From an uncultured Verrucomicrobiota bacterium (GTDB lineage: Bacteria > Auribacterota > JABMQX01), in contig CAYZXL010000003.1 in the NCBI GenBank assembly GCA_964482435.1, positions 69,472 to 133,471 of the forward strand: a stretch of DNA of 64,000 nt. Direction: 5' to 3'. Position 1 is the stretch's first letter. Every line of letters starts with the position of its first letter. Below the pieces are notes generated by a model that worked only from the letters and a program-made list of their open reading frames with translations, was not told where the DNA came from and ran no database searches. Below are positions 4,004 to 62,161 of this stretch, piece after piece. The position numbers and the translations under genes were made by a program.

Positions 4004-4597
4004 CTACGGCGACCCCACAAGAATCACCGACTCCATCGGCATCCCTTCTTCGGGAAAATAGATGTGATCCACCTCCGGAGAAGCCGGAATCATCCGCCCG
4101 CGATTCTCGAACCCCCTCAAGACCAGCCAGTATTCGCTCGGGCTGATATAGGACCGCCTTACGTCTTCATCCAGGGAAATCAGTTCTTTCGCGGAGGGGA
4201 ACTGCTCTGCCTTATCCAGTGGCAGTTTGTCCGTCGTTTCCTTGATAGGGGCGCGGCCGGAGAAAACGATCGCACCCGCCACAAACACAACCGCCGCAGC
4301 CGCGCGGACCGGCCAAGCAACCCACCGGCTCCTCAACAGCCTCCCCCAGATCCCGCCCCTTTCCACGGCCCCTCCCTCTTCCGCCCTGATTTGAGCCATC
4401 ACCGCATCCACGTACCGCCGCCGCGGCTCAATGCTCCGCCACGAGTCGAGCATCTTCGTCGTCGCGCGAAGCGCCGCAAGCTCCGTCGAGCAGAAGACAC
4501 ACACCTCCAGATGCTTCTGGAGGGCTTTCGCCTCGTCTTCGGTCAGCTCATTGTCCAGATAAGCTGGCAGTTGTCTTATTGTTTTCCTGCAATTCAT
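4004..4597 (-). CDS. anti-sigma factor, zf-HC2 type, single-pass membrane
   Basis: Start MNCRKTIRQLPAYLDNEL. HxxxCxxC zinc motif (HLEVCVFC). Central TM helix (WVAWPVRAAAAVVFVAGAIVF). 3' overlap with the ECF sigma gene. Confidence 0.65.
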   Translation of the reverse strand: MNCRKTIRQLPAYLDNELTEDEAKALQKHLEVCVFCSTELAALRATTKMLDSWRSIEPRRRYVDAVMAQIRAEEGGAVERGGIWGRLLRSRWVAWPVRAAAAVVFVAGAIVFSGRAPIKETTDKLPLDKAEQFPSAKELISLDEDVRRSYISPSEYWLVLRGFENRGRMIPASPEVDHIYFPEEGMPMESVILVGSP

Positions 4598-24535: not shown

Positions 24536-25936
24536 ATGCGCTACAGGGCCGTGCTATGCGCTGTGGCAGGAATTGCCGTGCTGTTCACGGAGCGGGATTG
24601 TTGCTCCGATCCTTTCACCTTTTACGATGATTTTGAAGGCTACGCAAACACCACACAGATGAGGGTCGTCTGGGACCCAGACAGCAGCATCTTTCTGGGC
24701 CAGCAGGGTTCCAACCAATATCTCAGGTATCGAGTAGCCGCTGGAAGCGCAAGAAGAGCCTCGACCTGGATAAACCCCACCGGCAGTCTGATGGGAGATA
24801 ATCTCAGCGCCTACGTAAGGTGCACCGCGGTCAATTCGGGGTATGCCTACTTCTACCTCAGGTCAGGGAGTTACGATTACAGGTCTATTGCGCGGTATCC
24901 ACTGAGCACAGGGATGGGATGGGCTACCTTCAGCCTCTCAGACATTGTACCGGACGATTTCGTGCGGTTCAGCGGCAAGGGCACGCCAGACCTCTCCAAT
25001 GTGAACAGACTTGGAGTAACCTTTTGGGTAAACACGCAGGGCCTCGGCTACCAGTACATGGAAGCAGACAACTTCTCAGTCACTCCGGAGCCGTGCGCTC
25101 TGCTTGCGCTCGGTGTGCCATGCGGAATTCTGACCCGATCAATGCTGCGAAGAAAGACACGCTTACGGCCTCGTGTGGTTGGCGCCTCGCTTTCAAGCGC
25201 GCTTTTTAGTCAACAATTTCCGTCTTGTCCTCGCGAGCTATGGGCACGACAAGGCTGTCAGGAGTTCTCCCCTCCCCTACGGGCGCAGTGTTCAGATTTA
25301 TCCCCGGCAAAAAGCGAGTCAGGTGACTGGCGCGCCCTTTGTTCGGGGTGGCCGCGTTTCGTGAGGGTGCCGTTCTTCGACCAGAGCAGCTTCTCCTCCA
25401 CATCCAAGGCCGGGATGAGGGGGCGTGCATCCGCACGGGTTGAACTCGCGGTTGAGCCGCCAGACGCAACGGCGTGCCGTAGCGCGCAAAATTGCGCAAC
25501 ATTCGCACCGGGAACGGACAAGTTTGTACCCTCTTCGGCCTGGAGAACGGACGGAACCCGGCGCCAGGGAATCTTTCGGCAACTGGCCGCATTGTTTTGT
25601 CCATCCCACTATCCAGATTATCCCGGGAAAAACCACCGCTCTATCCGAAATCTCCATCAAGTCAAGACATTTCCGCAAGTTTTTTCCCCGTCATGGGAAC
25701 ATGCGGATTTTTGCCCAAGTTCGCCGCTCGGTTGGCAGCGTTCTTGCTTACCGTCCACCGGTCGTTTCGCCGCAGCGTTGACTCCTGTTGACCGGGCGAA
25801 ACGTCGCGCTAAGGAACTCACCAACTTCGATAGTGTCGCCGTGGGGACTATACAAGTCAAGTCGTTGAGGCGGACTGTGCGCGGAGCCCGCTTCGATTTA
25901 AGTTTTAGACAATCACCACGGGATTTCACTCGATAG
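24536..25936 (+). CDS. PEP-CTERM-like secreted protein with anomalous C-terminal read-through (possible pseudogene or lost stop)
   Basis: Start MRYRAVLCAVAGIAVLF (signal peptide). PEP-CTERM sorting motif VTPEPCALLALGVPCGILTRSMLRRKTR ends about 25162. The frame then continues without a stop for ~260 low-complexity codons to 25936. Confidence 0.45.
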   Translation: MRYRAVLCAVAGIAVLFTERDCCSDPFTFYDDFEGYANTTQMRVVWDPDSSIFLGQQGSNQYLRYRVAAGSARRASTWINPTGSLMGDNLSAYVRCTAVNSGYAYFYLRSGSYDYRSIARYPLSTGMGWATFSLSDIVPDDFVRFSGKGTPDLSNVNRLGVTFWVNTQGLGYQYMEADNFSVTPEPCALLALGVPCGILTRSMLRRKTRLRPRVVGASLSSALFSQQFPSCPRELWARQGCQEFSPPLRAQCSDLSPAKSESGDWRALCSGWPRFVRVPFFDQSSFSSTSKAGMRGRASARVELAVEPPDATACRSAQNCATFAPGTDKFVPSSAWRTDGTRRQGIFRQLAALFCPSHYPDYPGKNHRSIRNLHQVKTFPQVFSPSWEHADFCPSSPLGWQRSCLPSTGRFAAALTPVDRAKRRAKELTNFDSVAVGTIQVKSLRRTVRGARFDLSFRQSPRDFTR

Positions 25937-26007
25937 GGGCGCCGTTAGGTCGCTTCAGTGCATGATCAAGCGCGCGAAGAACAGGCATAGAAAGGAGGTG
26001 AGAAAAG

Positions 26008-26490
26008 ATGAACAAAGTAGTGAGAGGTCTGGCGGTCGCTCTTGTGACCGTCGCTTTGGTCGGGACAGCGAGCGCTGCCACAAGTACCTCCCAGGTGCAG
26101 GTGACGGTTCCTCTGTTCGATATCCTTTCGGTATCGAACTCCGGGGTGATCACGCTCAGCGTTTCGCAGGGTGATAGCGAGATGACGGGCAGCGATAACA
26201 GCGCGTTGCTCTGGTATGTGCACACCGGCAGCGGCAGCAAGAAGATAACCGCGGCAGTCACCACGGACCCCAGCGGGGCAGACGACATCACGCTTACCGT
26301 CCAGGTTACCGATGGTAACGGTCAACAGACTATTTACCTTTCGGGGACAGCGACGGCGGCGAAGGATGTTTACACAAACATTTCCCGCGGGATTCTTTGG
26401 AACAAAACTGTCGCCTACACCGCCGCTGCGACCACTACTGAGGCAGGGTCCTACACGTTCGTGGTCACATTCACGAGCACGGATCAGTAG
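26008..26490 (+). CDS. SCPU (spore coat U)/Csu-type pilin-like secreted subunit
   Basis: AAAGGAGG RBS. Signal peptide ...GTASA. N-terminal ATSTSQVQVTV donor-strand-like segment. C-terminal GSYTFVVTFTSTDQ resembling the SCPU tail (G-x-Y-x-D-T-V-T-V-T-V). Confidence 0.55.
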   Translation: MNKVVRGLAVALVTVALVGTASAATSTSQVQVTVPLFDILSVSNSGVITLSVSQGDSEMTGSDNSALLWYVHTGSGSKKITAAVTTDPSGADDITLTVQVTDGNGQQTIYLSGTATAAKDVYTNISRGILWNKTVAYTAAATTTEAGSYTFVVTFTSTDQ

Positions 26491-26586
26491 TGCGTCTCTG
26501 TTCATGTGTGAGAGGCCCGGGGGGCCTGAAAGGGCCCCCTCGGGGCCCCTCGAGCAATCGAGGGAGTTTCCAGGGAACAACGCGAG

Positions 26587-27078
26587 ATGAAACTGAGAAG
26601 GTTTTCCAAAGTTGTAAGCTTAATTGTCTCCATCGGAGAAGCAAGTGGCTACTACCCCACTGCGGGAGGGGTATCAATCGCGGTTGTCGGCGACTGGAAC
26701 ACGACTATCAGCGCGACCGACCTAACCCACGGAATAGAGGGTATCCCCAGGGCGATGCGCCCCGCCAGCGCCTTCGAGAGCAGTTGCCGCAGCGCCGCCG
26801 ATCAGATTCGCCTCGAGGTCTCAGGGGCAAGAGGGAGATGGAAGGTCTTTGTTCGCAAGGGCGACGCCAACTGGCCGGACGACTTCGTACTCAAGGTCGA
26901 AAAAAGCTCCGGAGCCGACCGCCGGATAGTAACTGTCAGCGACGCGGATAAAGAGTTTTTCTCCGGCACCGGTAACGGCGTTCACTGCATACAAATCGGC
27001 TTAGATGGGCTATCCGCGGCAGTCGCCGCCGGCACTTACACGACGACGCTTGTTTTCACTATAACGGATGGCGAGTAA
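26587..27078 (+). CDS. second SCPU/Csu-like subunit (minor subunit or adhesin candidate)
   Basis: Ends AAGTYTTTLVFTITDGE, the same tail pattern as the subunit above. The N-terminus is atypical. Confidence 0.45.
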   Translation: MKLRRFSKVVSLIVSIGEASGYYPTAGGVSIAVVGDWNTTISATDLTHGIEGIPRAMRPASAFESSCRSAADQIRLEVSGARGRWKVFVRKGDANWPDDFVLKVEKSSGADRRIVTVSDADKEFFSGTGNGVHCIQIGLDGLSAAVAAGTYTTTLVFTITDGE

Positions 27079-27090
27079 GGGGAGAAAGCG

Positions 27091-27960
27091 ATGAGTAACT
27101 TGAAGACGAAAAGAGAAAAAACATGGGCATGGTGGTTGAGCTTGCTCGTGATGTCTTCCTGGGCAGTTCTTTCGGCCGCCCCTGCATGGGCCGCGACCGC
27201 GGTTGTGGGAGGATTGACGCGCGAGACAACCTCGAGGGTCGGGGAAACTTATCGGGGCGTCGTCGTCTTGAAGAACGATGGCGACGAGCCGCAAGAGGTC
27301 AAACTTTACCAAACCGACTACATGTTTAACAGCGAGGGAACAACGTTCTACGGCGAGCCGGGCAAATTGGAGCGTTCAAACGCCGATTGGGTCTCCTTCA
27401 GTCCCAGCAGGCTGACAATCCCTGCGAAGGGTTCTGCGGGGGTGGACTACACGGTTGAGGTTCCGGACGATAAGTCCATGACGGGGACCTACTGGAGCAT
27501 TCTGATGGTGGAGCCCATAGGGAGCAATTCCCCCGAAGCGACCTATCGGCTCGAGGCCGCAAATGTCTCGGTGGGTATCCGCGAGGTTACACGGTTGGGG
27601 ATTCAGGTTGTGACCCATATCGGGGATACCGGCAAGCCCAGACCATACTTTCTGAGGGCAAGGCTCACGACGAAACAAGACAGCACCCGCGTGCTGTGTG
27701 TTGACCTGGAAAACAGAGGGGAACGATGGATGATCCCCACCGTCTGGGCGGAGGCGTACGACGAGGAGGGGCGTCTCCTCGGCAGTTTCCAGGGCGGAAA
27801 GAAGCGAATCTATCCGGGAACTTCCGTCAGGTACGAGACCGACCTGAGCAATCTGCCGGAAGGGAGCTACAGGGTCCTGGTCGTGGCAGACGCGGGCAAT
27901 GACCAGGTTTTCGGCGCTAACTACACTCTGAAACTTCACAAGGCACCCACTGGAGAATAG
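27091..27960 (+). CDS. putative periplasmic pilus chaperone (PapD-like, tentative)
   Basis: Signal peptide. Beta-sandwich-like alternation with YRGVVVLKNDGDEPQEVKLYQTDYMF and GTYWSILMVEPIG, reminiscent of the PapD N-domain. The position between subunits and the usher-like gene fits Csu gene order. The assignment is tentative. Confidence 0.35.
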   Translation: MSNLKTKREKTWAWWLSLLVMSSWAVLSAAPAWAATAVVGGLTRETTSRVGETYRGVVVLKNDGDEPQEVKLYQTDYMFNSEGTTFYGEPGKLERSNADWVSFSPSRLTIPAKGSAGVDYTVEVPDDKSMTGTYWSILMVEPIGSNSPEATYRLEAANVSVGIREVTRLGIQVVTHIGDTGKPRPYFLRARLTTKQDSTRVLCVDLENRGERWMIPTVWAEAYDEEGRLLGSFQGGKKRIYPGTSVRYETDLSNLPEGSYRVLVVADAGNDQVFGANYTLKLHKAPTGE

Positions 27961-27966
27961 CAGATA

Positions 27967-29196
27967 GTGCGTGGCAAATGGGCACTCATTCTTGCTGGCG
28001 CTGGGCTTCTCGCCGACATCCATACTCAGGCCGCCGGCAGCCCTGTCTCGGTCAGCCCGGCAAGGGAATCGGTTCTCGAGACCAATCCAAGACAGGTGGT
28101 AACCGCGGCTTTTCGGGTTACCAACAGCAGCGAGGAAATGAAAGACCTTCTCGTTCGGGTGGACCTCCCGAGCGGGTGGAATCGTTTGAGCGAGGAGGCC
28201 CCTTTCCAGCTCGGGCCCGGCGAGAGCACCGTCAGACTCATGAGCTTTTTCGTTCCCTCAGAAGCCCTCCCCGGCACTTACGAACTCACCTACTCCCTCT
28301 CTAACCCCGAGACCGGAACTCTTCTTGGCGCGTCTCCCTTGAGTGTGATTGTTGTGCCGTTCACGAAACTGGAGGCGAAGTTACTGCGAGCTCCCGATTA
28401 CGTGGTTGCCGGGGAGGAGTATCAGGCCTTGTTCACTGTTACGAACCATGGGAATGCCATCTGTGCCACACGGGTGAAACTTGACAGTAGCGACGGTTTC
28501 GCGGCCAACCCAGACCCCGCGATGCTCGAGCTTGGCCCGGGACAGTCCAGAGAAGTCGCGGCAACAGTCAAGACCGATCCGGGATTCCGGCAGGAAGGAA
28601 CTCATCGGCTCGAACTGCGGCTGATACCGCCGGAGGGCGACGAGGGCAAACCGTTAGCGTCGGCGAAGAGCTCTGTCGAGATTGTGCCCCAGGTGGCGGG
28701 GACGGACGACCCCTTCCATCGGCTGCCGGTGAAATTTGCCGTTCGCAGCATCACCGAGAGCGGCCTCGCCAGAGACCAGAAGTTCCAGGCCAACTTCATG
28801 GGCTCGGGGACCCTCGACGACGAGGGGAAAAAGCGGATTGATTTTCTGTTTCGCGGGCCAGATGCCCACGATTGGTCAACTCTCGCCGAGAGGGATGAGT
28901 ATCGCCTCAGCTATCAGACCGACAAGTACCAGGTCCATCTCGGCGACCACATCTATTCCCTTTCCCCCTTGACTGAATGGTATCGCTACGGTTGCGGGAT
29001 TGACGTAGGCTTTAATTTTGACCGGTTCAGCCTTGGCGGATACCGCCAGGAAAGCCGCTGGTTCGAGCCGAAAGAGGAGCAGGTCGGCGCACGTTTGGGC
29101 TATCAAATAGCGGATAATTACAGCATCGGCCTTAATTGCCTGAAAAAAAAAACGCTGACCCATCGTTTCGACCAGGGAGTGACGGCGAGATTGTGA
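27967..29196 (+). CDS. outer-membrane usher-like protein, N-terminal fragment (frameshifted at A10)
   Basis: Signal peptide. Three CARDB/DUF11-like Ig domains (VTNSSEEMKDLLVRVDLPSGW, VTNHGNAICATRVKLDSSDGF). Start of beta-barrel-like strands. Terminates 15 codons after the A10 tract at 29143-29152. Confidence 0.5.
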   Translation: MRGKWALILAGAGLLADIHTQAAGSPVSVSPARESVLETNPRQVVTAAFRVTNSSEEMKDLLVRVDLPSGWNRLSEEAPFQLGPGESTVRLMSFFVPSEALPGTYELTYSLSNPETGTLLGASPLSVIVVPFTKLEAKLLRAPDYVVAGEEYQALFTVTNHGNAICATRVKLDSSDGFAANPDPAMLELGPGQSREVAATVKTDPGFRQEGTHRLELRLIPPEGDEGKPLASAKSSVEIVPQVAGTDDPFHRLPVKFAVRSITESGLARDQKFQANFMGSGTLDDEGKKRIDFLFRGPDAHDWSTLAERDEYRLSYQTDKYQVHLGDHIYSLSPLTEWYRYGCGIDVGFNFDRFSLGGYRQESRWFEPKEEQVGARLGYQIADNYSIGLNCLKKKTLTHRFDQGVTARL

Positions 29197-30830
29197 GCCT
29201 GCGGGGATTATTCACTCCGTTGGGGCGCATCGGCCTTGATACCGAATACGCAATAGGCAACAGCGAGACCGGGGATGGCGGCTCACAAGACGACGCGTAT
29301 CGAATCAAGCTTGACGGGCATGAGAAATGGGTCTCTTATCAACTCGAGATGGTTCATGCAGGACCGGACTGCCCCGGCTACTACAGGGACCTCGATTTCA
29401 AATCAGCACAGGTGAGCATCCCGGTTTGGGATTCGCTCAGGCTCAATGCTCAGTGGCGCGACCACCAGCAAAACCCCGACCTTAACCCAGCCTTTCGGAC
29501 CGCCCTTCATAGCAGGCACTCTCAGCTTGGTTTTTCGTACAGGCTTGGTCCTCGGACGAACGTCTCTCTCGACTATCGGAATCGTTTGCTCGAAGACCTT
29601 TTACCGCATCCGGAGTTCGATTCTCGGGAGGAGACCCTGGGGCTGGCTGTGGGGCAACAGTTCAAGAACTTCAGTCTCTGGGTCTCAGCAGAGGGCGGAG
29701 AAGAACTCGACAGCACCGCCGATCGCGATGACGCCAGAGGACCAATTCAGAGGTATTCGCTCTCGGCCCTGCTGAACCCGGCTTCAAATCAATCCTACAA
29801 AGCCTTCCTTCAGTTCGACGAAGGCGGTCTCTGCGCCGGGGGCGACAGCAGGCTAACCGGTGGCGTCGGCGCGTCGTTCAGTCTCGGGAAGACCACTTCA
29901 CTCAGCGTCAACTTCCTGAGGAACCAGTATGCCGGGGCGATAAGCAGAAGCCGCGACCAGTTTGACCTCCTCCTCGGCCACAGGTTTCGGAATGAGCACG
30001 AGCTTCTGGTCCGCGGGAGGTATGCTTTCCATGATAACTCTGTCGAGAAAGACGAGACCTGTGTCATCGTCGAGTATGGCATCCCGTTTTCGGTGCCAGT
30101 GAGCCGCAAGACCAAAACCGCGATGCTCCAGGGCCGGGTTTACGATGCGGAAAATGGCCAGAGGGCAATACCGGGCGTCGTCGTGAGGCTCAACCAGTTG
30201 ACCACCGTCACCGATAGGAGGGGAAACTTCATTTTCGGCTCCCTGAAGCCGGGCAAGTACTATCTCACGCTTGATAAAGCAGGCATCGGCATGAACAGAC
30301 TAACGGTCCAGAGCAGTCCCCTCGGAGTAGTCGTTGCGGGAGGAAAGAGAAATTGGGTCGAGGTGGGCGTTACGCGACGCGCCCGGGTCAAAGGGCGGGT
30401 CGCGGTTTACCCGGCCACGCGCGAGCAGAACGCAACGCCAGGCTGGAATCGGGAAGCCGAGCGCGTCGCCGGGGAAAAAGCCCAGGCCAATGCACCCCCG
30501 GGAGAGCCGGTGTTTACCGCCAACGGCTTGCACGAATCGGCCGACTCATACGGGCTGCCAAATGTCCTGGTGGAGCTTTCGAATTCCTCCGAGGTCCTGC
30601 GCCGCTTCACTGACAGGAAAGGGCGGTTTCTGTTTGAAGATGTGCGGCCGGGGGACTGGACGCTCAAGGTCGTCAACGCCGAGCTGCCGGAGCATCATTA
30701 CCTGGAAAAGGAGTCCTTCTCTCTCGACCTGAAACCCGCCGACGAGAAGGAATTCCTGGCGAGGGTGCTGCCCCGGGAACGACCCATCCAGATAATAGAG
30801 ACCGGCGAGGTGATTGGGCAAACGCCGTAG
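29136..30830 (+). CDS. outer-membrane usher-like protein, C-terminal fragment (continues the upstream ORF in the +1 frame)
   Basis: Amphipathic beta-strand barrel-like region, then two CarboxypepD_reg-like beta-sandwich domains (GRVYDAENGQRAIPGVVVRLN...GKYYLTLDKAG; GRFLFEDVRPGDWTLKVV). Fuses in-frame with 27967-29196 if the A-tract is 11 (or 8) nt. Confidence 0.5.
   Translation: MPEKKNADPSFRPGSDGEIVSLRGLFTPLGRIGLDTEYAIGNSETGDGGSQDDAYRIKLDGHEKWVSYQLEMVHAGPDCPGYYRDLDFKSAQVSIPVWDSLRLNAQWRDHQQNPDLNPAFRTALHSRHSQLGFSYRLGPRTNVSLDYRNRLLEDLLPHPEFDSREETLGLAVGQQFKNFSLWVSAEGGEELDSTADRDDARGPIQRYSLSALLNPASNQSYKAFLQFDEGGLCAGGDSRLTGGVGASFSLGKTTSLSVNFLRNQYAGAISRSRDQFDLLLGHRFRNEHELLVRGRYAFHDNSVEKDETCVIVEYGIPFSVPVSRKTKTAMLQGRVYDAENGQRAIPGVVVRLNQLTTVTDRRGNFIFGSLKPGKYYLTLDKAGIGMNRLTVQSSPLGVVVAGGKRNWVEVGVTRRARVKGRVAVYPATREQNATPGWNREAERVAGEKAQANAPPGEPVFTANGLHESADSYGLPNVLVELSNSSEVLRRFTDRKGRFLFEDVRPGDWTLKVVNAELPEHHYLEKESFSLDLKPADEKEFLARVLPRERPIQIIETGEVIGQTP
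29143..29152 (+). repeat. A10 homopolymer at the ORF junction (candidate slipped-strand phase-variation site)
   Basis: ctgAAAAAAAAAAcgc. A10 gives stop after ...LKKKTLTHRFDQGVTARL. A11 would give the fused protein ...LKKKNADPSFRPG... Confidence 0.6.
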
Positions 30831-31004
30831 CCTTGCTGATTCAGCGTTCGCGGACGGAGACCAAAGGGCAGGGGCGTATCCATCCTTTCGGTATGCCATG
30901 CGCGTTTCTGAGCCGATCCATGCTTCGAAGGGCGGAAGTATCCGCGACGCCAACCGCCCCATTAGCCGCTCGGGACGGGATTGCGAATGTAAGGTGCGTG
31001 TTGC

Positions 31005-32996
31005 CTACGATTCTTTTTGAGGGCCTTCCCCGGCCTTCTTGATACCCTTCTCGAGACTGCCTTTCGCGGTCGCGAAATGCCTCATCAAGGTTGCTGCCAG
31101 GCCTTCAACGGCACCGGAACTATTTCCGCCAGCCACAAGAATATCAGGTACGAATTTCACGTTCTTTTCAGCTAAGGCGGTGACAACGTTGACCACGGCG
31201 GTTGGCGTCTGCCCCAGAGCTTCGACCTGTGCACGATAAGCCTCCGCCCGGGCTAAACCTACTGCTCTGACCTCGGCGCCCCTGGCGGTTCCTGTTCTCT
31301 GGATGTATTCGGCCTCGCCGTCAGCTTCCGCCTTCCGGGCCATTGCCCTGTTTTCGGCAATTGTCACCTCAACCTCCGATGTAGCCAGCTTAGCCTGCAT
31401 ATCCGCCTGGCCCTTAGCCTTCTCCATCAGAATTCTTTTCTCCTGGGACTCCTGCTGTTTCTTGAGGGTCTCGATAAGCTGATTAGCGATCTCTCGCTGA
31501 GTCAGAACGTCCACGAGCTGCGACGGAAGAATAACATCCTGGATGTAAACACCTTTTGTTTCCACATCATACTGGGACAGCTTCTCGCTGATATGCTTAA
31601 ATGCTTCTTCTTGAACCTGCTGCCGAGTCTCGATGAATTTCACTGCCGGGAGGCTCTGGAGCTTGTCCCGGAAGTGATTGCCTACCGCTGCCTGCAAAAC
31701 CTCGCTAACTAAGTTCTTCATTGTGCCAACGATGGAAATGACCCGAGGCGCCTTTGTATCGGGCACGTGGATTTGCACCTGAAGGTCAATCCTGAAAAGG
31801 AAACCTTCCCTGCTTTTTGCATCAATGGGCTTGAGGTCAGCGTCGAGCTGGTGGGCCCGAGAGGTCGCGTCCGCCCAGCTCAGCGTCAAAATAAAGGTGG
31901 GCACAATCTCAGCCTGATAGCAGCGGGGATTGATCGGGTATTTGCCGGTTCGCAATGGTTCTTCCCAGATGCCGCGGTGCCCTGGTTTGACCAAGGTGCC
32001 GAACTTGAACTCCTTTCCCGACACGTCTTCGCTTGGCAAACCAACATACGACTTTATCACCGCCACCTCTCCCTGCTCTATAACCAGCATTGGCACCTTC
32101 TCGACGCTGATCAGGAAAGGATTCAGGTTGTACGCGCCGTAGAGGAGAGGGTCGTGCTGGAGTCCGATTCTGCCGCCGGTATCGAGGAATTTCTGGAAAT
32201 CTTGATAGTTGTTGTGGGCTTCATTCTTGGAACCTAAGATTGTTTCTATCAGTCTGGGACCGCTTTCATCCTTTTTCTCGAACTCCTCAATATCTCTAAA
32301 CCCTCCTATTCGGCTCGCAATGTCGCCGGCTGGCAAGGGGTCGCCCTCAAAAGCGGTAACAATGCCAATCACGTCAATCGTTTTGCCACCCTCACCATCT
32401 GGGTGCGGCACCGGTTCAATCCGACTGACATCGAGTTGCGCCGGTTTGAGGCCGAAGGCCCCGGGAGTGAGTATTCTATTTTCAGCGGCAAGTCTTTTCA
32501 GTTCGGACGAGACCGGGATGCCATAGACCTTTTCCTTAGTGATAACGAGGAATCCGACCGGATGAATGGGCGCCAGGCTTCCGGGAGGAAGGACTGGCCG
32601 TTGCACGCCTTTCTGGCCTCCATTCTCGACAAACTTCCTCAAGTTGGAGAAGTTGCCAAATTCCTTTTTGTAGGCAGCAGATTTTGCTCCCACCGGCAAC
32701 GCAGCACCAACCTGGGCAATGACGAGGCCGATTTGCCCGGCGGGCACCTGAACCCACGGATGGGTCTCCACCCTGTACAGAAGCCACAGCTTAAAACGGA
32801 GCCCCGGCATCAACAAGTCTGCCTGGTAACCAGCCTCCCCTTTGAAGCCAATCGGGTTGTCTTCGGAAAGCTTCTTTGCTGCAAAACGTTTAGTCACCAA
32901 TCCTATTTGCGTTGGCCCGATCACCCGAATGGACGCGAAAATCAAGAGCACTAATCCTATGCCGAGAACAATCAGAATCGTAACCTGAGCACCCAT
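31005..32996 (-). CDS. flotillin-like SPFH/band-7 membrane protein
   Basis: 663 aa. N-terminal TM. SPFH domain. Long Ala/Glu-rich coiled-coil (flotillin repeats) in the C-terminal half. Confidence 0.8.
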   Translation of the reverse strand: MGAQVTILIVLGIGLVLLIFASIRVIGPTQIGLVTKRFAAKKLSEDNPIGFKGEAGYQADLLMPGLRFKLWLLYRVETHPWVQVPAGQIGLVIAQVGAALPVGAKSAAYKKEFGNFSNLRKFVENGGQKGVQRPVLPPGSLAPIHPVGFLVITKEKVYGIPVSSELKRLAAENRILTPGAFGLKPAQLDVSRIEPVPHPDGEGGKTIDVIGIVTAFEGDPLPAGDIASRIGGFRDIEEFEKKDESGPRLIETILGSKNEAHNNYQDFQKFLDTGGRIGLQHDPLLYGAYNLNPFLISVEKVPMLVIEQGEVAVIKSYVGLPSEDVSGKEFKFGTLVKPGHRGIWEEPLRTGKYPINPRCYQAEIVPTFILTLSWADATSRAHQLDADLKPIDAKSREGFLFRIDLQVQIHVPDTKAPRVISIVGTMKNLVSEVLQAAVGNHFRDKLQSLPAVKFIETRQQVQEEAFKHISEKLSQYDVETKGVYIQDVILPSQLVDVLTQREIANQLIETLKKQQESQEKRILMEKAKGQADMQAKLATSEVEVTIAENRAMARKAEADGEAEYIQRTGTARGAEVRAVGLARAEAYRAQVEALGQTPTAVVNVVTALAEKNVKFVPDILVAGGNSSGAVEGLAATLMRHFATAKGSLEKGIKKAGEGPQKES

Positions 32997-33357
32997 GGCT
33001 TTCCCTCCCCTTCGTCCTTTTCCGTCTTTTTGTTTTAGCTACCCTCTCGCGGTATTGCTCTTTCAAAAGCAGCAATCTCATGCTGTACCGATTCCCTGTT
33101 GAATTGTCTCAGAACTGGGTTCGATGTTGCGCCGTCAGGTGACGCTGCAACCGAGCCGGTCCCCACGGGTCTGCTGCATAGACGGGTGTTGGCTTCGGGG
33201 CGACAAAAGAGACGAGGACTCCGGAAAAGACTGGTCTCTGGCATGCGCTGGCGTTGAGTCCCCCGCGATCACACGAGACCCACGTGGGCAAGCCCGGCTG
33301 GACGCACGTCCCCACGGTTTCCTCAGCACCCCTCCGTTTGGAATCGGGGGCGCCAGA

Positions 33358-33408
33358 GTCATCGTGGCACGGGCGTCCCGCCCGTGATTCATGGGCAAGA
33401 TGCCCATG
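33358..33408. repeat. double-hairpin intergenic repeat, copy A
   Basis: CACGGGCG-TCC-CGCCCGTG (33368-33386) followed by CATGGGCA-AGA-TGCCCATG (33390-33408). Confidence 0.6.
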
Positions 33409-33530
33409 CCACATAATAGCTCGACCATGAGCAGTTGAAGGATCACGCACAAGGCTTTCCTCCTGGCACCAGAAAGTATAACCGCGTCCAACGTCCCACG
33501 CAACAAGCGTTTTCACGGGGGCGCGCCTGT

Positions 33531-33585
33531 GTCATCGTGGCACGGGCGTCCCGCCCGTGATACTGTTCATCCGCAACATGCCCAT
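33531..33585. repeat. double-hairpin intergenic repeat, copy B (tandem, 173-bp period)
   Basis: 31-nt core gtcatcgtggcacgggcgtcccgcccgtgat identical to copy A. Homology of about 80 nt including upstream cgggggcgc. Second hairpin ACATG-CCC-CATGT. Confidence 0.6.
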
Positions 33586-33759
33586 GTCACATCTGAACTC
33601 GATAGGACGAGCGGGCCCCGCCTGACTCACGAGCACTCCCCGAAGCGGTTCGACTGGCGGCGCGACAACCGCGGATTGCGTGCGTCGGGTTGAGGGCACA
33701 CGGTTAGACGTCACGCGACGGAATTGCCCCGTGTGCCCGCACAATTGCTTTCGTTCCCA

Positions 33760-35016
33760 TCACTTTCTAATCGGAATGAGGACGAGGTTGCGAAACTCCA
33801 TCGGTGAGCCCTCAGACTGGAGGCAGATTGCGCCGGGCGTTTCCCAGCAATCGGCAGCCGTATTCTGCACGAGCTCGTTGATCTTCAACTCGAGATACCC
33901 TCCATCGAGCGTTATCTCGTACTGGTTCCACTGGCCGACGGGTTTCTCATTGGACATGTACATCTTGCGAGTGTGCCGGCCGCTCGTCCGTGTTGGGTCG
34001 GTCTTCATGGGGAACTCGTCTATGTTCCAGATATCGCCAGTGGCTCCGTATTGCCCCTGCGCCTCAATGGACCGCGGCCAGACCTTGTCCGGGCCAACCA
34101 TCCGAAGCAGCACGCCACCGTTGCCGCTGCCGAGGTGGCGGAACTGAAGCCGCAGCACGTAATTGGTGAAATCCTCCGTCGTGCGGATGTAACCGATGGG
34201 CTGGCCTTTGTTCACCATCACCCCGTCTTTGACGCTCCAGGTGTCCCTGAGGGCGTCGCTGGACCGGGTCCAGCCATCGAGGTTCCTGCCGTTGAATAGG
34301 AGCTGCGCCTCGCCGAAAGCGTCGGGCAAGCGCGTGACCCGAATGTCCTTGAACTCGACGGTCATCGGGGCGCCGGGGCGAATTTGAAGGGCGAGGATGC
34401 CCTCCATCGCCCTTCCCTTCCGGTCGTTGTCAATCAGCTCGATGGTCTGGAATCCGTTGAGCATCTGGATCAGGTGATTGCCCCGCGCGATAATCGTGTA
34501 TTCGTTCCAGTCCTTTTCCTTGTAGTAGCGGGCCCTGATCAGCGCGTCTCTGTCGGCAATCTTCCCCACGACATTCTGGTTGCCCTTTTCATCAACCACC
34601 ATGATGTCCCCCACATTGACCATCCAGCCCCGCCCCGCCTCCTCGTACAGGAAGCCAGCCCTCCCCGGGGCGTTTGCCACCTCCGCCTGGTACCCGGCGA
34701 CGCGCCATCCTCCCAGGTGTCTGCTGCGGTACTGGATGCCAGAGTTGCCGTCCTGGAGACGAAATTTGATCTTGAGGATGAAGTTCTTCAACTTGCCGCC
34801 ACGCCAGATGCAGAAAGTATTCCGGCGGGCCGGCTTTTGTTCCGTGGTCCGCCCGCGAATGGCGCCGTGCACAACCGACCAGAGACGCGGGTCGCCGTCC
34901 CAACCGGTGAGGTCCTTGCCGTTGAAAATTGTCTCTTCAGTGAGCGCTGCCCAGGACGCCACGAAAGGCCCTGCGCCGAAGAGCAGAAGGCAAACGAGGA
35001 AAACCATTCGCTTCAT
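33760..35016 (-). CDS. secreted protein with two tandem DUF1080 (3-keto-disaccharide hydrolase-like) domains
   Basis: Signal peptide. Two copies of the DUF1080 pattern (FNGKDLTGWDGD...W.v.dG.i / FNGRNLDGWTRS...WSVKDGVM; NSGIQYRS / GNGGVLLR). Confidence 0.75.
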   Translation of the reverse strand: MKRMVFLVCLLLFGAGPFVASWAALTEETIFNGKDLTGWDGDPRLWSVVHGAIRGRTTEQKPARRNTFCIWRGGKLKNFILKIKFRLQDGNSGIQYRSRHLGGWRVAGYQAEVANAPGRAGFLYEEAGRGWMVNVGDIMVVDEKGNQNVVGKIADRDALIRARYYKEKDWNEYTIIARGNHLIQMLNGFQTIELIDNDRKGRAMEGILALQIRPGAPMTVEFKDIRVTRLPDAFGEAQLLFNGRNLDGWTRSSDALRDTWSVKDGVMVNKGQPIGYIRTTEDFTNYVLRLQFRHLGSGNGGVLLRMVGPDKVWPRSIEAQGQYGATGDIWNIDEFPMKTDPTRTSGRHTRKMYMSNEKPVGQWNQYEITLDGGYLELKINELVQNTAADCWETPGAICLQSEGSPMEFRNLVLIPIRK

Positions 35017-40498: not shown

Positions 40499-40867
40499 CT
40501 ACGGCAGGACGTGTCCTTTTTCTCCGGCGAGGCTGCATACCGGGTCTTCGCCAACGGCGCCGTACGTGTAGGTCCCACCCGCGGGACATGATGGAGCACC
40601 AGCCTTCAAGAGAGAATTCACCTCGTCCACGTCAACCTCCTCTCCCTGCGCTTTGTGATTCATCAAAGCCCACTGCTCTTTGGCCCCCTCGATGATCCTG
40701 AGGTTATCAATGCAGAGGTTCTTCTGGGCGTCGGCTCGGGCTTTGATGAAAGTCGGGATTGCCAGGGTGGCAAGCAGGCCGATCACGAGGACCACGATCA
40801 TAATCTCAACGAGCGTGAAGCCGCGATTCGACTGCACTCCTCCATCTCCTTGTCGAGTGGATGTCAC
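40499..40867 (-). CDS. prepilin-type N-terminal cleavage/methylation domain protein (pilin/pseudopilin-like), paralog 2
   Basis: Class III signal ...NRG|FTLVEIMIVVLVIGLLA with Glu+5. C-terminal CPAGGTYTYGAVGEDPVCS disulfide pair. Confidence 0.7.
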   Translation of the reverse strand: MTSTRQGDGGVQSNRGFTLVEIMIVVLVIGLLATLAIPTFIKARADAQKNLCIDNLRIIEGAKEQWALMNHKAQGEEVDVDEVNSLLKAGAPSCPAGGTYTYGAVGEDPVCSLAGEKGHVLP

Positions 40868-41000
40868 GGATTCCCCCCATCAGTGCGGATGCTCACTGCC
40901 TTCACTCGTCTCTGCCAGTGCACCGGGCAACGCCACAGCAAGGGGGATGAGACGCAGCTCCCATCCCCCTTCAGGGCACCACTGGCGCGGAACAATTTCG

Positions 41001-41330
41001 TTACGGCAATACGTGCAGCGCGACGCTGCAAGTCGGGTCGGCGCTCACAGCTCCGTATGTGTACGTCCCGCTGGCAGGGCAGTCCGGAGTGCCGCCCTTG
41101 ATATAGGCGTCGACTTCTGCCTGGACGATGGCATCCCCGGTGACCTTCTTGTTGGCCAGCGCCCACTGTTCCTTTGCCGCGTCAATCTGCCTGAGGTTGT
41201 TGATGCAGGCATTCTTCTGGGATTCCGTTCTTGCCTTGATAAAGCTCGGAATCGCGATTGCGGCCAGGAGACCGATGATTGCCACGACAATCATGATCTC
41301 GACGAGCGTGAACCCTTTTCGTCCTCTCAT
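41001..41330 (-). CDS. prepilin-type N-terminal cleavage/methylation domain protein (pilin/pseudopilin-like), paralog 1
   Basis: MRGRKG|FTLVEIMIVVAIIGLLAAIAIP. About 60% identical to paralog 2. C-terminal CPASGTYTYGAVSADPTCS. Confidence 0.75.
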   Translation of the reverse strand: MRGRKGFTLVEIMIVVAIIGLLAAIAIPSFIKARTESQKNACINNLRQIDAAKEQWALANKKVTGDAIVQAEVDAYIKGGTPDCPASGTYTYGAVSADPTCSVALHVLP

Positions 41331-41414
41331 CCTCTGTCCCTCCTTTTTGTGTTAGTTTTCCCGGCGGTAAGGTTTTGTACGTATTCCAGACCGCTCTTTG
41401 CGTAGGGAGGGAGT

Positions 41415-41667: not shown

Positions 41668-41786
41668 CGCCGCCGTGCCGGCGGCAGTCGTGAGGGCGTC
41701 CCGCCCTCACATTAGAACCACCGCCTTTCATCCCGCCCAAATCGAACCGTGGGCAAGATGCCCCCGAGACAGCCGGCAAGATGCCG
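41668..41786. repeat. double-hairpin intergenic repeat, copy C (covarying stem)
   Basis: GTGAGGGCG-TCC-CGCCCTCAC (41689-41709), then GGGCA-AGA-TGCCC (41750-41762) and CCGGCA-AGA-TGCCGG (41772-41786). Same loop and inner stem as copies A/B, with compensatory outer-stem changes. Confidence 0.55.
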
Positions 41787-42028
41787 GCGTTACAGAGAGA
41801 CGCTCCCCACTGGACCTTGTCCCAGCACTCCCCGTCACGAGCAAATCCCCGCAACATCTCCCACTCAAACTTAGCCGCAGCCCTGGTAACGCCACTCGAC
41901 GGAGGCGACACCTCGCAGCGCAAAGAGGCAGAAAATCGCGGCGGGGGCGATTTGATGATGGAGATGCCCCTTGGGCAGGGCGTGTTTCGGTTCTCCCTGT
42001 AGGAGCGGAGGAAAATGCCGTCAGCGGG

Positions 42029-60295: not shown

Positions 60296-62161
60296 CTACT
60301 TCGGTGCTTCATCCGCCGCGTCCTGTCTTGAGGACTCGCGCTCGGCGATCAACGATTGCTTGCTTATCCCGCACGAAATGTGGTCCCAGGGCAGGACTTC
60401 GTCGTACGCTCGCTCACGACACGCATAGAAATCCGGGTCAATGTTGCTTTCCCGAAACGCTTCCAGCCACGTGTCATACCGAAAATGTTCCGTCCAATCA
60501 TCAAGGCGGCAGCCCTTCTGCCATGCCCGGTAGATGGCCGATGACAGCCGCCTATCACCACGTGAAAAGACAGCTTCCAGGTAGCTTTTGTGAGGGTCGT
60601 GGAACTTGAGTTTTACGTTTTTCTCTTTTATCAAGCGCCTAATATACAGAATCTTGCGCTGAAGGTCAAGAGTGCTGTGGAATTTTTCCCACTGAAATGG
60701 AGTGTGGGCTTTTGGGACGAACGGGGCGATGCTCAAGTTGAGGTGTCCGCGCCTGCCGTCCACCTTCTTCCTGGCGTCGGCAATTTTGTACACAAGCTCC
60801 GCGAGGGCAGCGATGTCCTCGTCGCGTTCTGTCGGGAGGCCAATCATGAAGTAGAGTTTTATCAACCTCCAACCGGCAGCATAGGCAGCTTCGGCGGCGG
60901 CGAGAACGTCCTCCTCCTCCAAATTCTTGTTTATAACCTTTCGGAGACGCGCGGTTGCCGCCTCAATGGCGAGGGTTACGCCAGTCTTTTTCGTTGGCTG
61001 CGTGCGCTCGAGCAGCCTGATGGAGAAGGTGTCTGGCCTGAGAGAAGGGAGAGAGATGGCTGTGCGGTCGCTCCCAAGACACTCAGAGAGACGCAGTACC
61101 ACTTCGTTTATCTCTCGGTGGTCTCCCGTGGAAAGGGAAGAAAGGGAGATTTCCTCGAAGCCGGTTGCCTCAATGAGGCGCTTTGCTCTGCTGATAATTT
61201 CCGAGGCGGGCAATTCCCTCACCGGCCGATAAAGCATCCCGGCCTGACAGAATCGGCACCCCCGCCCGCATCCTCTCATCACCTCCACAACCGCACGGTC
61301 CTGGACAACCTCGATGAACGGCACGATCGGCTTCTCGGGGTACGGTGCCGCGGCAAGGTTCTTGACAGTCCTTTTCCGAACTGTGCCGGGGATGCCTTCC
61401 TCGTTCGGTTCGACGCTCAGGATACTCCCAGAGGATGCAGGCGAGACGCCTGCGCTACAGCCAGGATTGGAATCGTATTCCACCCGGTAGAAGTGCGGGA
61501 CGTACATTCCCTCGTATTTCGTGGCAAGCGCCCGAAGAAAGTCAATCCTCGCGCGTGGATTCGACCCAATCCGTTCCCGGAATCCTCCCGCTCGGAACTC
61601 TTGCAGGATTTCTACAATCGCCTCCTCCCCTTCGCCCACGACGAACAGGTCAATAAACTCCCACATCGGCTCCGGCACAAATGCGCCGAGTCCTCCCGCA
61701 ATGACTATGGGCCCGCCCGCCTTGCACCTTTCTTCAAAACGAAGCGGGATGCCTCCTAAGTCCAGCATGTTCAAAACGTTCGTGTAGCAGAGCTCGTATC
61801 CAACGGAGAAGCCCACGATGTCGAAATCTTTCAGCGGAGTGAGACTCTCGAGGGAATAAAGCGGGATTGACTTCTCGCGCATTCTTTCTTCCATGTCAAC
61901 CCAGGGAGCGAAGACCCTTTCCGCGACAGCCCAATCCAGCCGGTTGACGATTTCGTATAGGATTTGGATGCCGAGGTTGCTCATCCCTATCTCGTAGGTG
62001 TCGGGGAAGGCAATGGCAAAACTGACCTCGACGTCAGCACGCGATTTATTGACCGCGTTCAATTCCGAACCGATGTATCGCCCGGGGCGTACAACTTTCG
62101 GCAGGACTTCCGCCTCCAGAAGCCTGGCAAGGTCCGATGCCTTTAGCTTTATTGTGCTCAC
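60296..62161 (-). CDS. B12-binding-domain radical SAM protein (TIGR03960 family)
   Basis: N-terminal B12-binding-like domain. CxxxCxxC cluster MRGCGRGCRFCQAG. 621 aa. Confidence 0.8.
   Translation of the reverse strand: MSTIKLKASDLARLLEAEVLPKVVRPGRYIGSELNAVNKSRADVEVSFAIAFPDTYEIGMSNLGIQILYEIVNRLDWAVAERVFAPWVDMEERMREKSIPLYSLESLTPLKDFDIVGFSVGYELCYTNVLNMLDLGGIPLRFEERCKAGGPIVIAGGLGAFVPEPMWEFIDLFVVGEGEEAIVEILQEFRAGGFRERIGSNPRARIDFLRALATKYEGMYVPHFYRVEYDSNPGCSAGVSPASSGSILSVEPNEEGIPGTVRKRTVKNLAAAPYPEKPIVPFIEVVQDRAVVEVMRGCGRGCRFCQAGMLYRPVRELPASEIISRAKRLIEATGFEEISLSSLSTGDHREINEVVLRLSECLGSDRTAISLPSLRPDTFSIRLLERTQPTKKTGVTLAIEAATARLRKVINKNLEEEDVLAAAEAAYAAGWRLIKLYFMIGLPTERDEDIAALAELVYKIADARKKVDGRRGHLNLSIAPFVPKAHTPFQWEKFHSTLDLQRKILYIRRLIKEKNVKLKFHDPHKSYLEAVFSRGDRRLSSAIYRAWQKGCRLDDWTEHFRYDTWLEAFRESNIDPDFYACRERAYDEVLPWDHISCGISKQSLIAERESSRQDAADEAPK

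What the first reader, a model, noticed from the sequence alone, without database searches (positions are those of the whole stretch)
33330..33610. Tandem pair of double-hairpin repeats in the 760-bp gap upstream of the flotillin gene
Two ~80-nt units 173 bp apart share a perfect 31-nt core (gtcatcgtggcacgggcgtcccgcccgtgat). The core contains hairpin CACGGGCG-TCC-CGCCCGTG. It is followed by a second hairpin (CATGGGCA-AGA-TGCCCATG in copy A, ACATG-CCC-CATGT in copy B). No ORF explains the conservation. These could be REP-like elements, a structured ncRNA, or protein-binding sites.
Basis: seen in the sequence. Interest (0 to 1): 0.6.

Follow-up and report, generated by a model that had tools for sequence, protein, structure and literature searches.

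The report
REP hairpin repeats (REPIN pair)
The two repeats are copies of a small mobile palindromic DNA element (a REP doublet, or REPIN) that transposase-like RAYT enzymes spread through bacterial genomes, so they are a known kind of genomic passenger and not a regulator of the flotillin gene.

Summary
The 31-mer occurs exactly twice (33358-33388, 33531-33561; 0 expected). The true unit is a 23-nt REP: a 5' GT(G/A)G tag, an 8-bp GC stem and a TCY loop. Each copy is an inverted REP doublet with the tags outside (a REPIN). Copy A (33364-33412) is intact. The second arm of copy B (33537-33590) is decayed.

Related units lie at 41687-41793, and one lies inside a radical-SAM gene (61436-58). The 19-nt hairpin is exact in at least 119 genome stretches from about 9 phyla:
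- The tag is conserved (G at -4 in 134/136).
- The stem covaries.
- 82/129 copies have an inverted partner on the tail side; none has one on the tag side.

RAYT (Y1/HUH) genes in other genomes are flanked by these REPs with tags outward (L096, L043, L088; 22 of 80 RAYT loci).

A 96-98% identical relative lacks the copy-A doublet (54 nt against an unrelated 18 nt). It also lacks the 36-nt in-frame REP insert in the radical-SAM gene. More distant flotillin loci have no REP.

Verdict: a new member of a known kind, of modest interest. No RAYT was found in this window.

Side finding: related RAYTs mostly sit in frame inside LeuRS, CarB and other large genes.

The parts
33364..33386 (+). REP unit A1: GTGG tag + CACGGGCG-TCC-CGCCCGTG
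   Evidence: Exact match to the family consensus. Covariance model R1 scores it 40.9 bits, E = 3e-10.
33390..33412 (-). REP unit A2, the inverted partner: GTGG + CATGGGCA-TCT-TGCCCATG. With A1 and a 3-nt spacer it forms an intact REPIN (tags outside).
   Evidence: One search gives 0 mismatches. R1 scores it 37.1 bits. The identical A1+A2 pair occurs in L012 and L044.
33537..33559 (+). REP unit B1, identical to A1
   Evidence: 40.9 bits. It is identical in the orthologous site of relative L127.
33568..33590 (-). REP unit B2, a decayed inverted partner (GTGACATGGGCATGTTGCGGATG). Its stem is broken and the spacer is 8 nt.
   Evidence: One search gives 3 mismatches. R1 scores it only 8.2 bits. It folds weakly. 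The orthologue in L127 has decayed differently.
33335..33424 (+). Copy A with shared flanks (about 90 nt). The flanks resemble those of copy B, which suggests a local duplication of doublet plus flanks.
   Evidence: the repeat finder families D1 and D2; alignment.
33508..33602 (+). Copy B with shared flanks (about 95 nt)
33361..33414 (.). A 54-nt segment (the copy-A doublet give or take 3 nt) that is replaced by an unrelated 18 nt in a 96% identical relative
   Evidence: Alignment with L127.
41687..41793 (.). A second REP cluster between convergent genes. It holds one + unit (GTCG-TGAGGGCG-TCC-CGCCCTCA, 41687-41709) and two - units (41747-41769 and 41771-41793, the latter GTAA-CGCCGGCA-TCT-TGCCGGCT), with tags outward.
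   Evidence: R1 gives 16.5, 15.0 and 13.2 bits. The fold has z = -5.1. Two Logan contigs end inside it.
61436..61458 (-). A single GTAG-tagged REP (GTAGCGCAGGCGTCTCGCCTGCA) inside a 36-nt in-frame insertion (about 61431-61466) in a B12-binding radical-SAM gene
   Evidence: R1 gives 19.6 bits, E = 0.0015. The 12-aa insert is absent from all 7 aligned homologues, including one 98% identical. The 36-nt indel against L128 is clean.

Best explanation
The two repeats are REP doublets (REPINs), which are non-autonomous mobile DNA.

Anatomy. Each 23-nt REP has a 5' tetranucleotide tag GT(G/A)G, an 8-bp GC-rich stem and a 3-nt TCY loop. Two REPs in inverted orientation, with the tags on the outside, make a unit. 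On single-stranded DNA or RNA this unit folds either as twin hairpins or as one long hairpin.

Inferred mechanism, by analogy with E. coli TnpA-REP. A RAYT (an HUH/Y1 nuclease) encoded elsewhere in the genome binds the hairpin plus tag on single-stranded DNA. It cleaves nearby and transfers strands, and in this way copies or removes doublets.

History at this locus. A doublet and its flanks were duplicated locally. Copy A is intact and is recent or recently renewed. Copy B is older, and its second arm is decaying.

Relation to the genes. The copies are passengers in a long spacer between two co-directional genes and are not a conserved flotillin control element. As a by-product, any transcript crossing the gap would contain very stable stem-loops. 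Such stem-loops could stabilise the 3' end of the upstream mRNA or impede read-through.

Shown: the anatomy, family membership, covariation, doublet geometry, RAYT linkage in other genomes, and indel polymorphism against close relatives.

Inferred: catalysis by a RAYT in this genome, and any effect on RNA.
For: Local copies:
- The window holds exactly four units at the site and further units at two other loci, against 0.03 expected.

Family across genomes:
- The 19-mer is exact in at least 119 stretches of other genomes.
- In those copies position -4 is G in 134/136 and -3 is T in 123/136. The tags are GTGG in 70, GTAG in 16 and GTGA in 15, and nothing is conserved further upstream.
- 82/129 copies have an inverted partner downstream with tags outside; 0 have one upstream.
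- 5 of 8 stem pairs show compensatory changes, in 57 cells against 13 +/- 3 in shuffles.

RAYT linkage:
- The RAYT in L096 passes the NCBIfam REP_Tyr_transpos cutoff (85.7 bits against 80) and matches Pfam Y1_Tnp.
- The RAYTs in L096, L043 and L088 are flanked by these REPs with tags outward.
- Of 80 RAYT loci from metagenomes, 22 carry matching REPs within 300 nt and 17 carry them on both sides. In nearly all, the upstream unit is '+' and the downstream unit '-'. Only 2 stray hits lie elsewhere in those loci.

Recent change:
- The copy-A doublet (54 nt) is replaced by 18 unrelated nt in a 96% identical syntenic relative.
- A clean 36-nt REP insertion in the radical-SAM gene is absent from a 98% identical relative.

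Other support:
- REP sites are mostly extragenic: 21% lie in long open frames, against 52% of random positions.
- Short-read assemblies break at these sites.
- The literature describes GTAG-tagged REPs, tag-outside 'HH' dimers, and GTGG tags in Opitutus terrae (PMC3733652). It also describes REPINs (PMC3116915) and the requirement of the tag for RAYT binding and cleavage (PMC3479197).
Against: - No RAYT gene lies in the 64-kb window (tblastn). The rest of the source genome could not be read, so a cognate enzyme in this organism is unproven.
- The copy-A difference from L127 is a replacement (54 nt against 18 nt), not a clean presence/absence. Insertion, deletion and gene conversion therefore cannot be told apart.
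- The shared flanks of A and B show that at least one of the two copies arose by local duplication and not by transposition.
- Only 22 of 80 related RAYT loci carry this particular REP consensus.
For a 19-mer with 16 G/C bases, chance hits in GC-rich genomes are not negligible. The conserved tag and partner geometry exclude chance; the raw count does not.
Confidence: 0.88

Rival explanations
1. A structured non-coding RNA or cis-regulatory leader that controls the flotillin (SPFH) gene.
For: The fold is very stable and well above shuffled controls on both strands. The stem covaries. The elements lie 362-594 nt upstream of the start codon in an unusually long gap.
Against: - There is no Rfam match, even at E <= 10.
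- Flotillin loci at 77-80% protein identity have different neighbours and no REP.
- Copy A is missing from a 96% identical relative.
- The same hairpin sits next to unrelated genes, in both orientations, inside ORFs, and flanking transposase genes.
Confidence: 0.03
2. Host-selected transcription terminators or 3'-end mRNA-stabilising hairpins for the upstream DUF1080 gene. Under this reading the repetition is incidental.
For: The repeats lie 170-400 nt downstream of the stop of a co-directional gene, and the 41.7-kb cluster lies between convergent genes. REPs are reported to affect mRNA turnover and termination (abstracts of PMC3733652 and PMC3479197).
Against: - No T-tract follows any hairpin, and the terminator scan found 0 sites.
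- This idea does not explain the conserved GTRG tag, the tag-outside doublet geometry, the link to RAYT, or the in-frame copies inside genes.
- At best it is a secondary effect of a mobile element.
Confidence: 0.06
3. Palindromic operator sites for a DNA-binding protein, or the product of a purely local tandem duplication with no wider family.
For: Both hairpins are palindromes. The two copies share about 40 nt of flanking similarity, consistent with a 173-bp segmental duplication.
Against: The hairpin is dispersed to two more loci in the window and to at least 119 stretches in about 9 phyla. Compensatory stem changes point to selection on a folded single strand, not on a duplex operator sequence. 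Local duplication explains the pair but not the element.
Confidence: 0.03

Closest known systems
GTAG-tagged REPs and their 'HH' dimers (Di Nocera, De Gregorio & Rocco 2013, PMC3733652), including the Opitutus terrae families in which GTAG is mostly GTGG
   Same: - A short GC-rich stem-loop with a 6-9 bp stem and a 2-3 nt loop.
- A terminal GT(A/G)G tag.
- Dimers with tags outside and spacers of 1-100 bp.
- Compensatory stem sub-families.
- Some in-frame copies inside genes.
- Presence in the PVC superphylum.
- RAYT genes flanked by the repeats.
   Different: The paper's consensus sequences are in a figure that I could not read, so identity with one of its 24 families (for example GTAG-20) is unverified. 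Here the same 19-23-nt sequence is exact in about 9 phyla, a wider spread than the paper's text describes for any one family.
REPIN-RAYT systems of Pseudomonas fluorescens and E. coli (Bertels & Rainey 2011, PMC3116915)
   Same: Inverted REP doublets that fold into a hairpin are the replicative unit. Doublets are better conserved than singlets (compare intact A1/A2/B1 with decaying B2). They sit in extragenic space, and a RAYT is flanked by its own REPs.
   Different: - The spacers are very short (3 and 8 nt here; 2-162 nt across the family), where SBW25 REPINs have longer spacers.
- The sequence is shared across phyla, whereas REPIN-RAYT systems are described as mostly vertically inherited (abstract of 10.1101/2022.05.22.493013).
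- Many related RAYTs are embedded in frame in host genes and are not stand-alone single-copy genes.
E. coli REP/BIME with TnpA-REP (RayT) (Messing et al. 2012, PMC3479197)
   Same: A hairpin plus a 5' tetranucleotide that is required for binding and cleavage. The enzyme has HUH and catalytic-Tyr motifs: NHVH and YI..NP in the relatives found here.
   Different: - E. coli REP stems are imperfect and longer, and its tag is GTAG.
- In E. coli, A3 and G4 of the tag specify a CT cleavage site. A GTGG tag would by analogy specify CC, which is untested.
- Binding of IHF, gyrase or Pol I to BIMEs was not examined here.
Rickettsia palindromic elements (RPE) and other in-frame palindromic inserts
   Same: Palindromic repeats that insert in frame in protein-coding genes, as at 61431-61466.
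   Different: RPEs are longer and are not linked to a Y1 transposase. This comparison rests on my own knowledge plus the mention of RPEs in PMC3733652.

Membership tests
REP (GTAG-tagged repetitive extragenic palindrome) | A short (20-40 bp) GC-rich palindrome able to form a stem-loop | tested here: met
   A 23-nt unit with an 8-bp stem and a 3-nt loop. Folds have z of -5 to -6. 95.7% of stem cells are paired across 94 distinct variants.
REP (GTAG-tagged repetitive extragenic palindrome) | A conserved unpaired 5' tetranucleotide GTAG or a close variant | tested here: met
   GTGG in units A1, A2 and B1 of the window. Across 136 copies the tags are GTGG 70, GTAG 16 and GTGA 15; position -4 is G in 134 and -3 is T in 123, with no conservation beyond -4.
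REP (GTAG-tagged repetitive extragenic palindrome) | Multi-copy, dispersed and mainly extragenic within a genome | tested here: inconclusive
   Only 64 kb of this genome could be read. It holds 8 units at 3 loci, against 0.03 expected. Short-read contigs break at the sites. In other genomes several contigs of one MAG carry copies, and 79% of sites are outside long open frames. The genome-wide copy number here is unknown.
REPIN (REP doublet forming a hairpin) | Two REPs in inverted orientation that can pair into one hairpin, over-represented relative to other arrangements | tested here: met
   A1/A2 and B1/B2 are tag-outside pairs. 82/129 family copies have such a partner within 200 nt, 0 have the opposite inverted arrangement, and only 7-10 are direct. 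The long-hairpin RNA fold is -36.6 kcal/mol.
REPIN-RAYT system | A cognate RAYT (Y1/HUH) gene flanked by the same REPs (a REPtron) | tested here: met
   Met for the family in other genomes. L096 scores 85.7 bits against the NCBIfam REP_Tyr_transpos cutoff of 80. L043 and L088 also qualify. 22/80 RAYT loci have flanking REPs with tags outward.
REPIN-RAYT system | A RAYT present in the same genome as the repeats | not testable with these tools
   There is no RAYT in the window. The rest of the source contig (175,784 bp) and of the genome was not retrievable.
REPIN-RAYT system | Evidence of movement or turnover (presence/absence between close relatives) | tested here: met
   A 36-nt REP insertion is absent from a 98% identical relative. 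The copy-A doublet is replaced by 18 nt in a 96% identical relative.
REPIN-RAYT system | RAYT binds and cleaves the tagged hairpin as single-stranded DNA | not testable with these tools
   This needs biochemistry. It is known for E. coli TnpA-REP (PMC3479197).
Di Nocera GTAG-20 family (Opitutus terrae) | The same stem and loop consensus as the published family | not testable with these tools
   The consensus is in Figure 1, which is not held. The text says only that GTAG is mostly GTGG in this family. Five supplementary files contain no matching sequence. Hits in Opitutaceae and Opitutus MAGs make identity plausible.
Rfam structured RNA families | A match at or near a family's gathering score | tested here: not met
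   There are 0 hits at gathering score over the whole window. Only chance-level hits (at most 18 bits) appear at E <= 10 in the gap.
Intrinsic (Rho-independent) terminator | A GC-rich hairpin followed by a T-run | tested here: not met
   There are 0 terminator-like sites in 32900-33850, and the sequence shows no T-run after any unit.

The most novel reading that the evidence does not exclude
The window's repeats belong to a single REP sequence family that is shared almost unchanged across about 9 bacterial phyla. The GTGG-tagged form of this family has no stop codon in any of the six frames. In the sampled relatives, its RAYT transposases mostly live as in-frame inserts at fixed permissive sites of large housekeeping genes (LeuRS, CarB, DinG-like helicase, PriA, XseA, Type IIG/ISP restriction enzymes), bracketed by REP-encoded Gly/Thr/Pro/Val linkers. 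That would be an intein-like hiding place for a REPtron. I found no description of it in the searched literature.
Probability: 0.45. Interest if true: 0.7.

Novelty: new member of a known kind. Interest (0 to 1): 0.35.

Why it matters
For this locus, the result removes a candidate 'new ncRNA' and explains a long, indel-prone intergenic spacer.

More broadly:
- It documents an active REP family in an uncultured Phycisphaerae-like planctomycete, with recent in-frame insertion into a gene.
- It shows that one REP sequence is shared across many phyla. This sits uneasily with the view that REPIN-RAYT systems are lineage-specific and vertically inherited.
- These repeats also break short-read assemblies, which matters for the quality of metagenome-assembled genomes in these phyla.

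Tried and rejected
- Rfam at gathering score and at a permissive threshold found nothing.
- ORFs in the gap have no credible family.
- The promoter and terminator scan of the gap found nothing.
- I looked for a protein consistently encoded next to the hairpin in 119 loci. The neighbours are unrelated housekeeping genes such as response regulators, ABC ATPases, SDRs and sigma factors, so there is no fixed partner gene.
- Orthologous comparison through flotillin homologues at 77-80% identity failed because synteny is lost. A member of the same 90% cluster (P0121) gave the useful relative.
- Literature search for the sequence itself gave no relevant hit. Neither the supplements of PMC3733652 nor the text of Nunvar 2010 list this REP.
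- The source genome accession could not be recovered.
- An exact look-up of the sigma-54 regulator with the longest ORF start failed, but succeeded with the ATG start.
- I considered CRISPR repeats, integron attC sites and IS ends and rejected them. There is no regular spacing, no R'/R'' attC motifs, and no adjacent integrase or cas genes. These judgements rest on sequence inspection and my own knowledge.
- The RAYT protein search returned mainly 200-300-aa stand-alone proteins in its top 120. This contrasts with the embedded majority among the metagenome loci, and the discrepancy is unresolved.

Full report
**1. Observation**

The gap between the DUF1080/3-keto-disaccharide-hydrolase gene (33760-35016, -) and the SPFH/Band-7 'flotillin' gene (31005-32996, -) is 763 nt. 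The 31-mer is present exactly twice, at 33358-33388 and 33531-33561, even when 3 mismatches are allowed. None was seen in 100 shuffles.

Similarity between the two copies runs further than the core: 54 nt at 85% and 37 nt at 78%, offset by a 5-nt indel. No ORF in the gap has a credible Pfam hit. No promoter-like or terminator-like site is found. Rfam gives nothing.

**2. Anatomy**

Hairpin 2 of copy A is the inverted partner of hairpin 1 (24-nt arms, 79% complementary, 1 nt apart). A degenerate pattern, GTRGCAYGSSCRTCYYGSSCRTG, finds four units:
- 33364-86 (+)
- 33390-412 (-)
- 33537-59 (+)
- 33568-90 (-), a decayed unit with 3 mismatches

Each copy is therefore a pair of 23-nt units in inverted orientation with a GTGG tag on the outside. 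As DNA, copy A folds into two hairpins closed by GTGG/CCAC (-20.3 kcal/mol, z = -5.3). As RNA it folds into one long hairpin (-36.6 kcal/mol, z = -5.6). Copy B folds weakly.

**3. The family**

The hits are in Planctomycetota, Verrucomicrobiota and Lentisphaerae, Acidobacteriota, Armatimonadota, Sumerlaeota, Hydrogenedentota, Ignavibacteria, Nitrospiraceae and a cyanobacterium.

A 16-G/C 19-mer is not vanishingly rare in GC-rich DNA, so the raw count alone proves little. The context does:
- Across 136 copies, position -4 is G in 134 and -3 is T in 123. The tags are GTGG (70), GTAG (16) and GTGA (15), and nothing is conserved further upstream.
- 82 of 129 copies have an inverted partner within 200 nt downstream (tags outside). 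None has one upstream.
- The partners carry compensatory stem variants (GGGC/GCCC, GGCC/GGCC, GCGC/GCGC, CAC/GTG against CAT/ATG) and loops GGGA, GAGA or AAGA.
- On 94 distinct units, 5 of 8 pairs show double changes: 57 cells against 13 +/- 3 in shuffles, far above the slid controls. The search pattern did not force complementarity at the variable positions. The sequences are related, however, so this is supportive and not a formal test.

The exact A1+A2 heterodimer also occurs in a Hydrogenedentota MAG and an Ignavibacteria MAG, with 6-nt and 2-nt spacers.

**4. More copies in the window**

A covariance model built from the 94 units (R1) was run without filters. It recovers the three good units (37-41 bits). 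It also finds a GTAG-tagged unit at 61436-58 (-) (19.6 bits, E = 0.0015) and three weaker units at 41687-41793. The latter form a tag-outside cluster between convergent genes.

**5. Link to a transposase**

The genes next to the hairpin in the 119 loci are unrelated housekeeping genes. Three loci, however, carry a Y1/HUH protein directly flanked by the REPs with tags outward: L096, L043 and L088. The L096 segment passes NCBIfam's equivalog cutoff for 'REP-associated tyrosine transposase' (85.7 bits against 80) and matches Pfam Y1_Tnp.

I used an alignment of these three to fetch 80 relatives from metagenomes. Of these, 22 have matching REPs within 300 nt and 17 have them on both sides. In nearly all of these, the upstream unit is '+' (31-103 nt away) and the downstream unit '-' (0-80 nt away), though L144 carries units of both orientations on each side and L146/L155 have a '-' unit upstream. 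Only two hits lie elsewhere in those loci. This is the REPtron architecture described by Nunvar et al., Bertels & Rainey and Di Nocera et al.. No RAYT lies in the window itself.

**6. Turnover**

P0121, a member of the flotillin protein's 90% cluster, led to L127. L127 is a syntenic contig (ThiI-like, DUF1080, flotillin) that is 96% identical in DNA.

Its gap has only one doublet, the orthologue of copy B. Unit B1 is identical in both genomes, while B2 and the spacer have diverged differently. At the copy-A site the window has 54 nt (33361-33414, the doublet give or take 3 nt). L127 has an unrelated 18 nt there, and the flanks on both sides are shared.

Separately, the radical-SAM protein (60296-62161, -) has a 12-aa insert, PGCSAGVSPASS. 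It is absent from seven homologues, including one 98% identical. At DNA level this is a clean 36-nt insertion containing the GTAG-REP, compared with L128 from the same metagenome as L127.

More distant flotillin loci (77-80% identity) have different neighbours and no REP. Short-read (Logan) contigs end inside unit A1 and inside the 41.7-kb cluster, as expected for multi-copy sequence. Across the genome loci, 21% of REP sites lie in long open frames against 52% of random positions, so the family is mainly extragenic.

**7. Interpretation**

These are GT(G/A)G-tagged REPs organised as REPINs. In the nomenclature of PMC3733652 they are 'HH dimers'. That paper also reports that GTAG is mostly GTGG in an Opitutus terrae family and that O. 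terrae has many in-frame intragenic REPs.

The mechanism is inferred from E. coli TnpA-REP. There the hairpin and the 5' tag are both required for binding and cleavage of single-stranded DNA, and tag bases 3-4 specify the cleavage dinucleotide (PMC3479197). The shared flanks of copies A and B indicate that the pair arose by local duplication of a doublet with its flanks. That kind of arrangement is described for REP clusters in PMC3733652.

The elements are not a conserved feature of the flotillin gene. Any effect on transcripts, such as 3'-end stabilisation or a barrier to read-through, would be a by-product and is untested.

**8. Side finding, outside the window**

In 54 of the 80 RAYT loci, the RAYT reading frame stays open for more than 120 codons on both sides. 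Pfam shows the flanks to be single host proteins split by the Y1 domain:
- LeuRS or another class I aminoacyl-tRNA synthetase (17 loci)
- carbamoyl-phosphate synthase large chain, CarB (17 loci)
- a DinG/XPD-like helicase (8 loci)
- Eco57I/MmeI/Type ISP restriction-modification enzymes (about 8 loci)
- exonuclease VII large subunit
- PriA

The LeuRS insertion point is the same in at least 12 loci and in L096. L027, from the same family as L096, has only a REP-encoded footprint at that point. The CarB point is also fixed. 50 of the 54 embedded RAYTs keep the NHVH...W...YI..NP motifs. The junctions encode REP-derived G/T/P/V-rich peptides.

The top 120 protein-database relatives are stand-alone proteins of 200-300 aa, so both lifestyles exist and their proportions are unknown. 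I found no paper describing this. [quoted passage not shown]

**9. Verdict**

The 'REP-like' option is correct, and the ncRNA and binding-site options are not supported. This is a new member of a known kind, and interest in the locus itself is modest. The cross-phylum identity of the REP and the in-frame REPtrons are the parts worth following up.

Noticed in passing
L096:311-3538 (-); L043:97-2340 (+); L129-L208: RAYT (Y1/HUH) genes related to the one linked to this REP family mostly sit in frame inside large host genes. In 54 of 80 loci the frame stays open for more than 120 codons on both sides. The hosts are LeuRS or another class I aaRS (17), CarB (17), a DinG-like helicase (8), Type IIG/ISP restriction enzymes (about 8), XseA and PriA. 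The insertion points in LeuRS and CarB are fixed, and catalytic motifs are kept in 50/54. No description was found in the searched literature.
   Followed up: partly
L027:3129-5795 (+), REP at 4415-4433: A Terrimicrobiaceae LeuRS carries only a REP-encoded footprint (AYTGGTPVPPD) at the exact site where L096 (same family) carries the whole REP-RAYT-REP unit. This is a presence/absence of the transposase at one site in an essential gene.
   Followed up: partly
window 61431-61466 (-), in ORF 60296-62161: A clean 36-nt in-frame insertion (12 aa, PGCSAGVSPASS) containing a GTAG-tagged REP lies in a TIGR03960-type B12-binding radical-SAM gene. It is absent from a 98% identical relative and from all other aligned homologues.
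   Followed up: yes
window 41687-41793: A cluster of three related REP units (one +, two -, tags outward) lies between convergent genes 40680-41405 (+) and 42029-43378 (-, a sigma-54 response regulator). Logan contigs from two runs both end inside it.
   Followed up: partly
window 24561-31012 versus L127:7985-9177: About 6.4 kb of the window downstream of the flotillin gene is absent from the 96% identical relative, which has about 1.2 kb of other sequence there. The missing segment encodes the CarboxypepD_reg protein at 29136-30830 and neighbouring + strand ORFs that were not annotated. No REP was detected at the boundaries.
   Followed up: no
window ~33466 versus L127:5436-5565: The relative has an extra segment of about 130 nt in the same intergenic gap. 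It does not resemble a REP. The spacer is a hotspot of indels.
   Followed up: no
L002-L120 (genome-contig hits): The same 19-23-nt REP is exact in about 9 phyla, including long contigs and complete chromosomes (Fontivita pretiosa, an 8.9-Mb Opitutaceae chromosome). The RAYTs of L096 and L043 are only 46% identical yet are flanked by near-identical REPs.
   Followed up: partly
L020, L021, L025, L072, L104 (Tepidisphaeraceae SMAG_U10183): In this MAG the REP carries a GTGA tag. Its doublets have a conserved spacer of about 53 nt (CCGATGGCTGAAAAGTAGG...), so they form a longer, lineage-specific REPIN variant present on many contigs.
   Followed up: no
family consensus GTGGCACGGGCGTCCCGCCCGTG: By inspection, the GTGG-tagged unit has no stop codon in any of the six frames, whereas GTAG and GTGA tags create one. 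This may relate to the shift from GTAG to GTGG in lineages with many intragenic copies. This is speculation.
   Followed up: no
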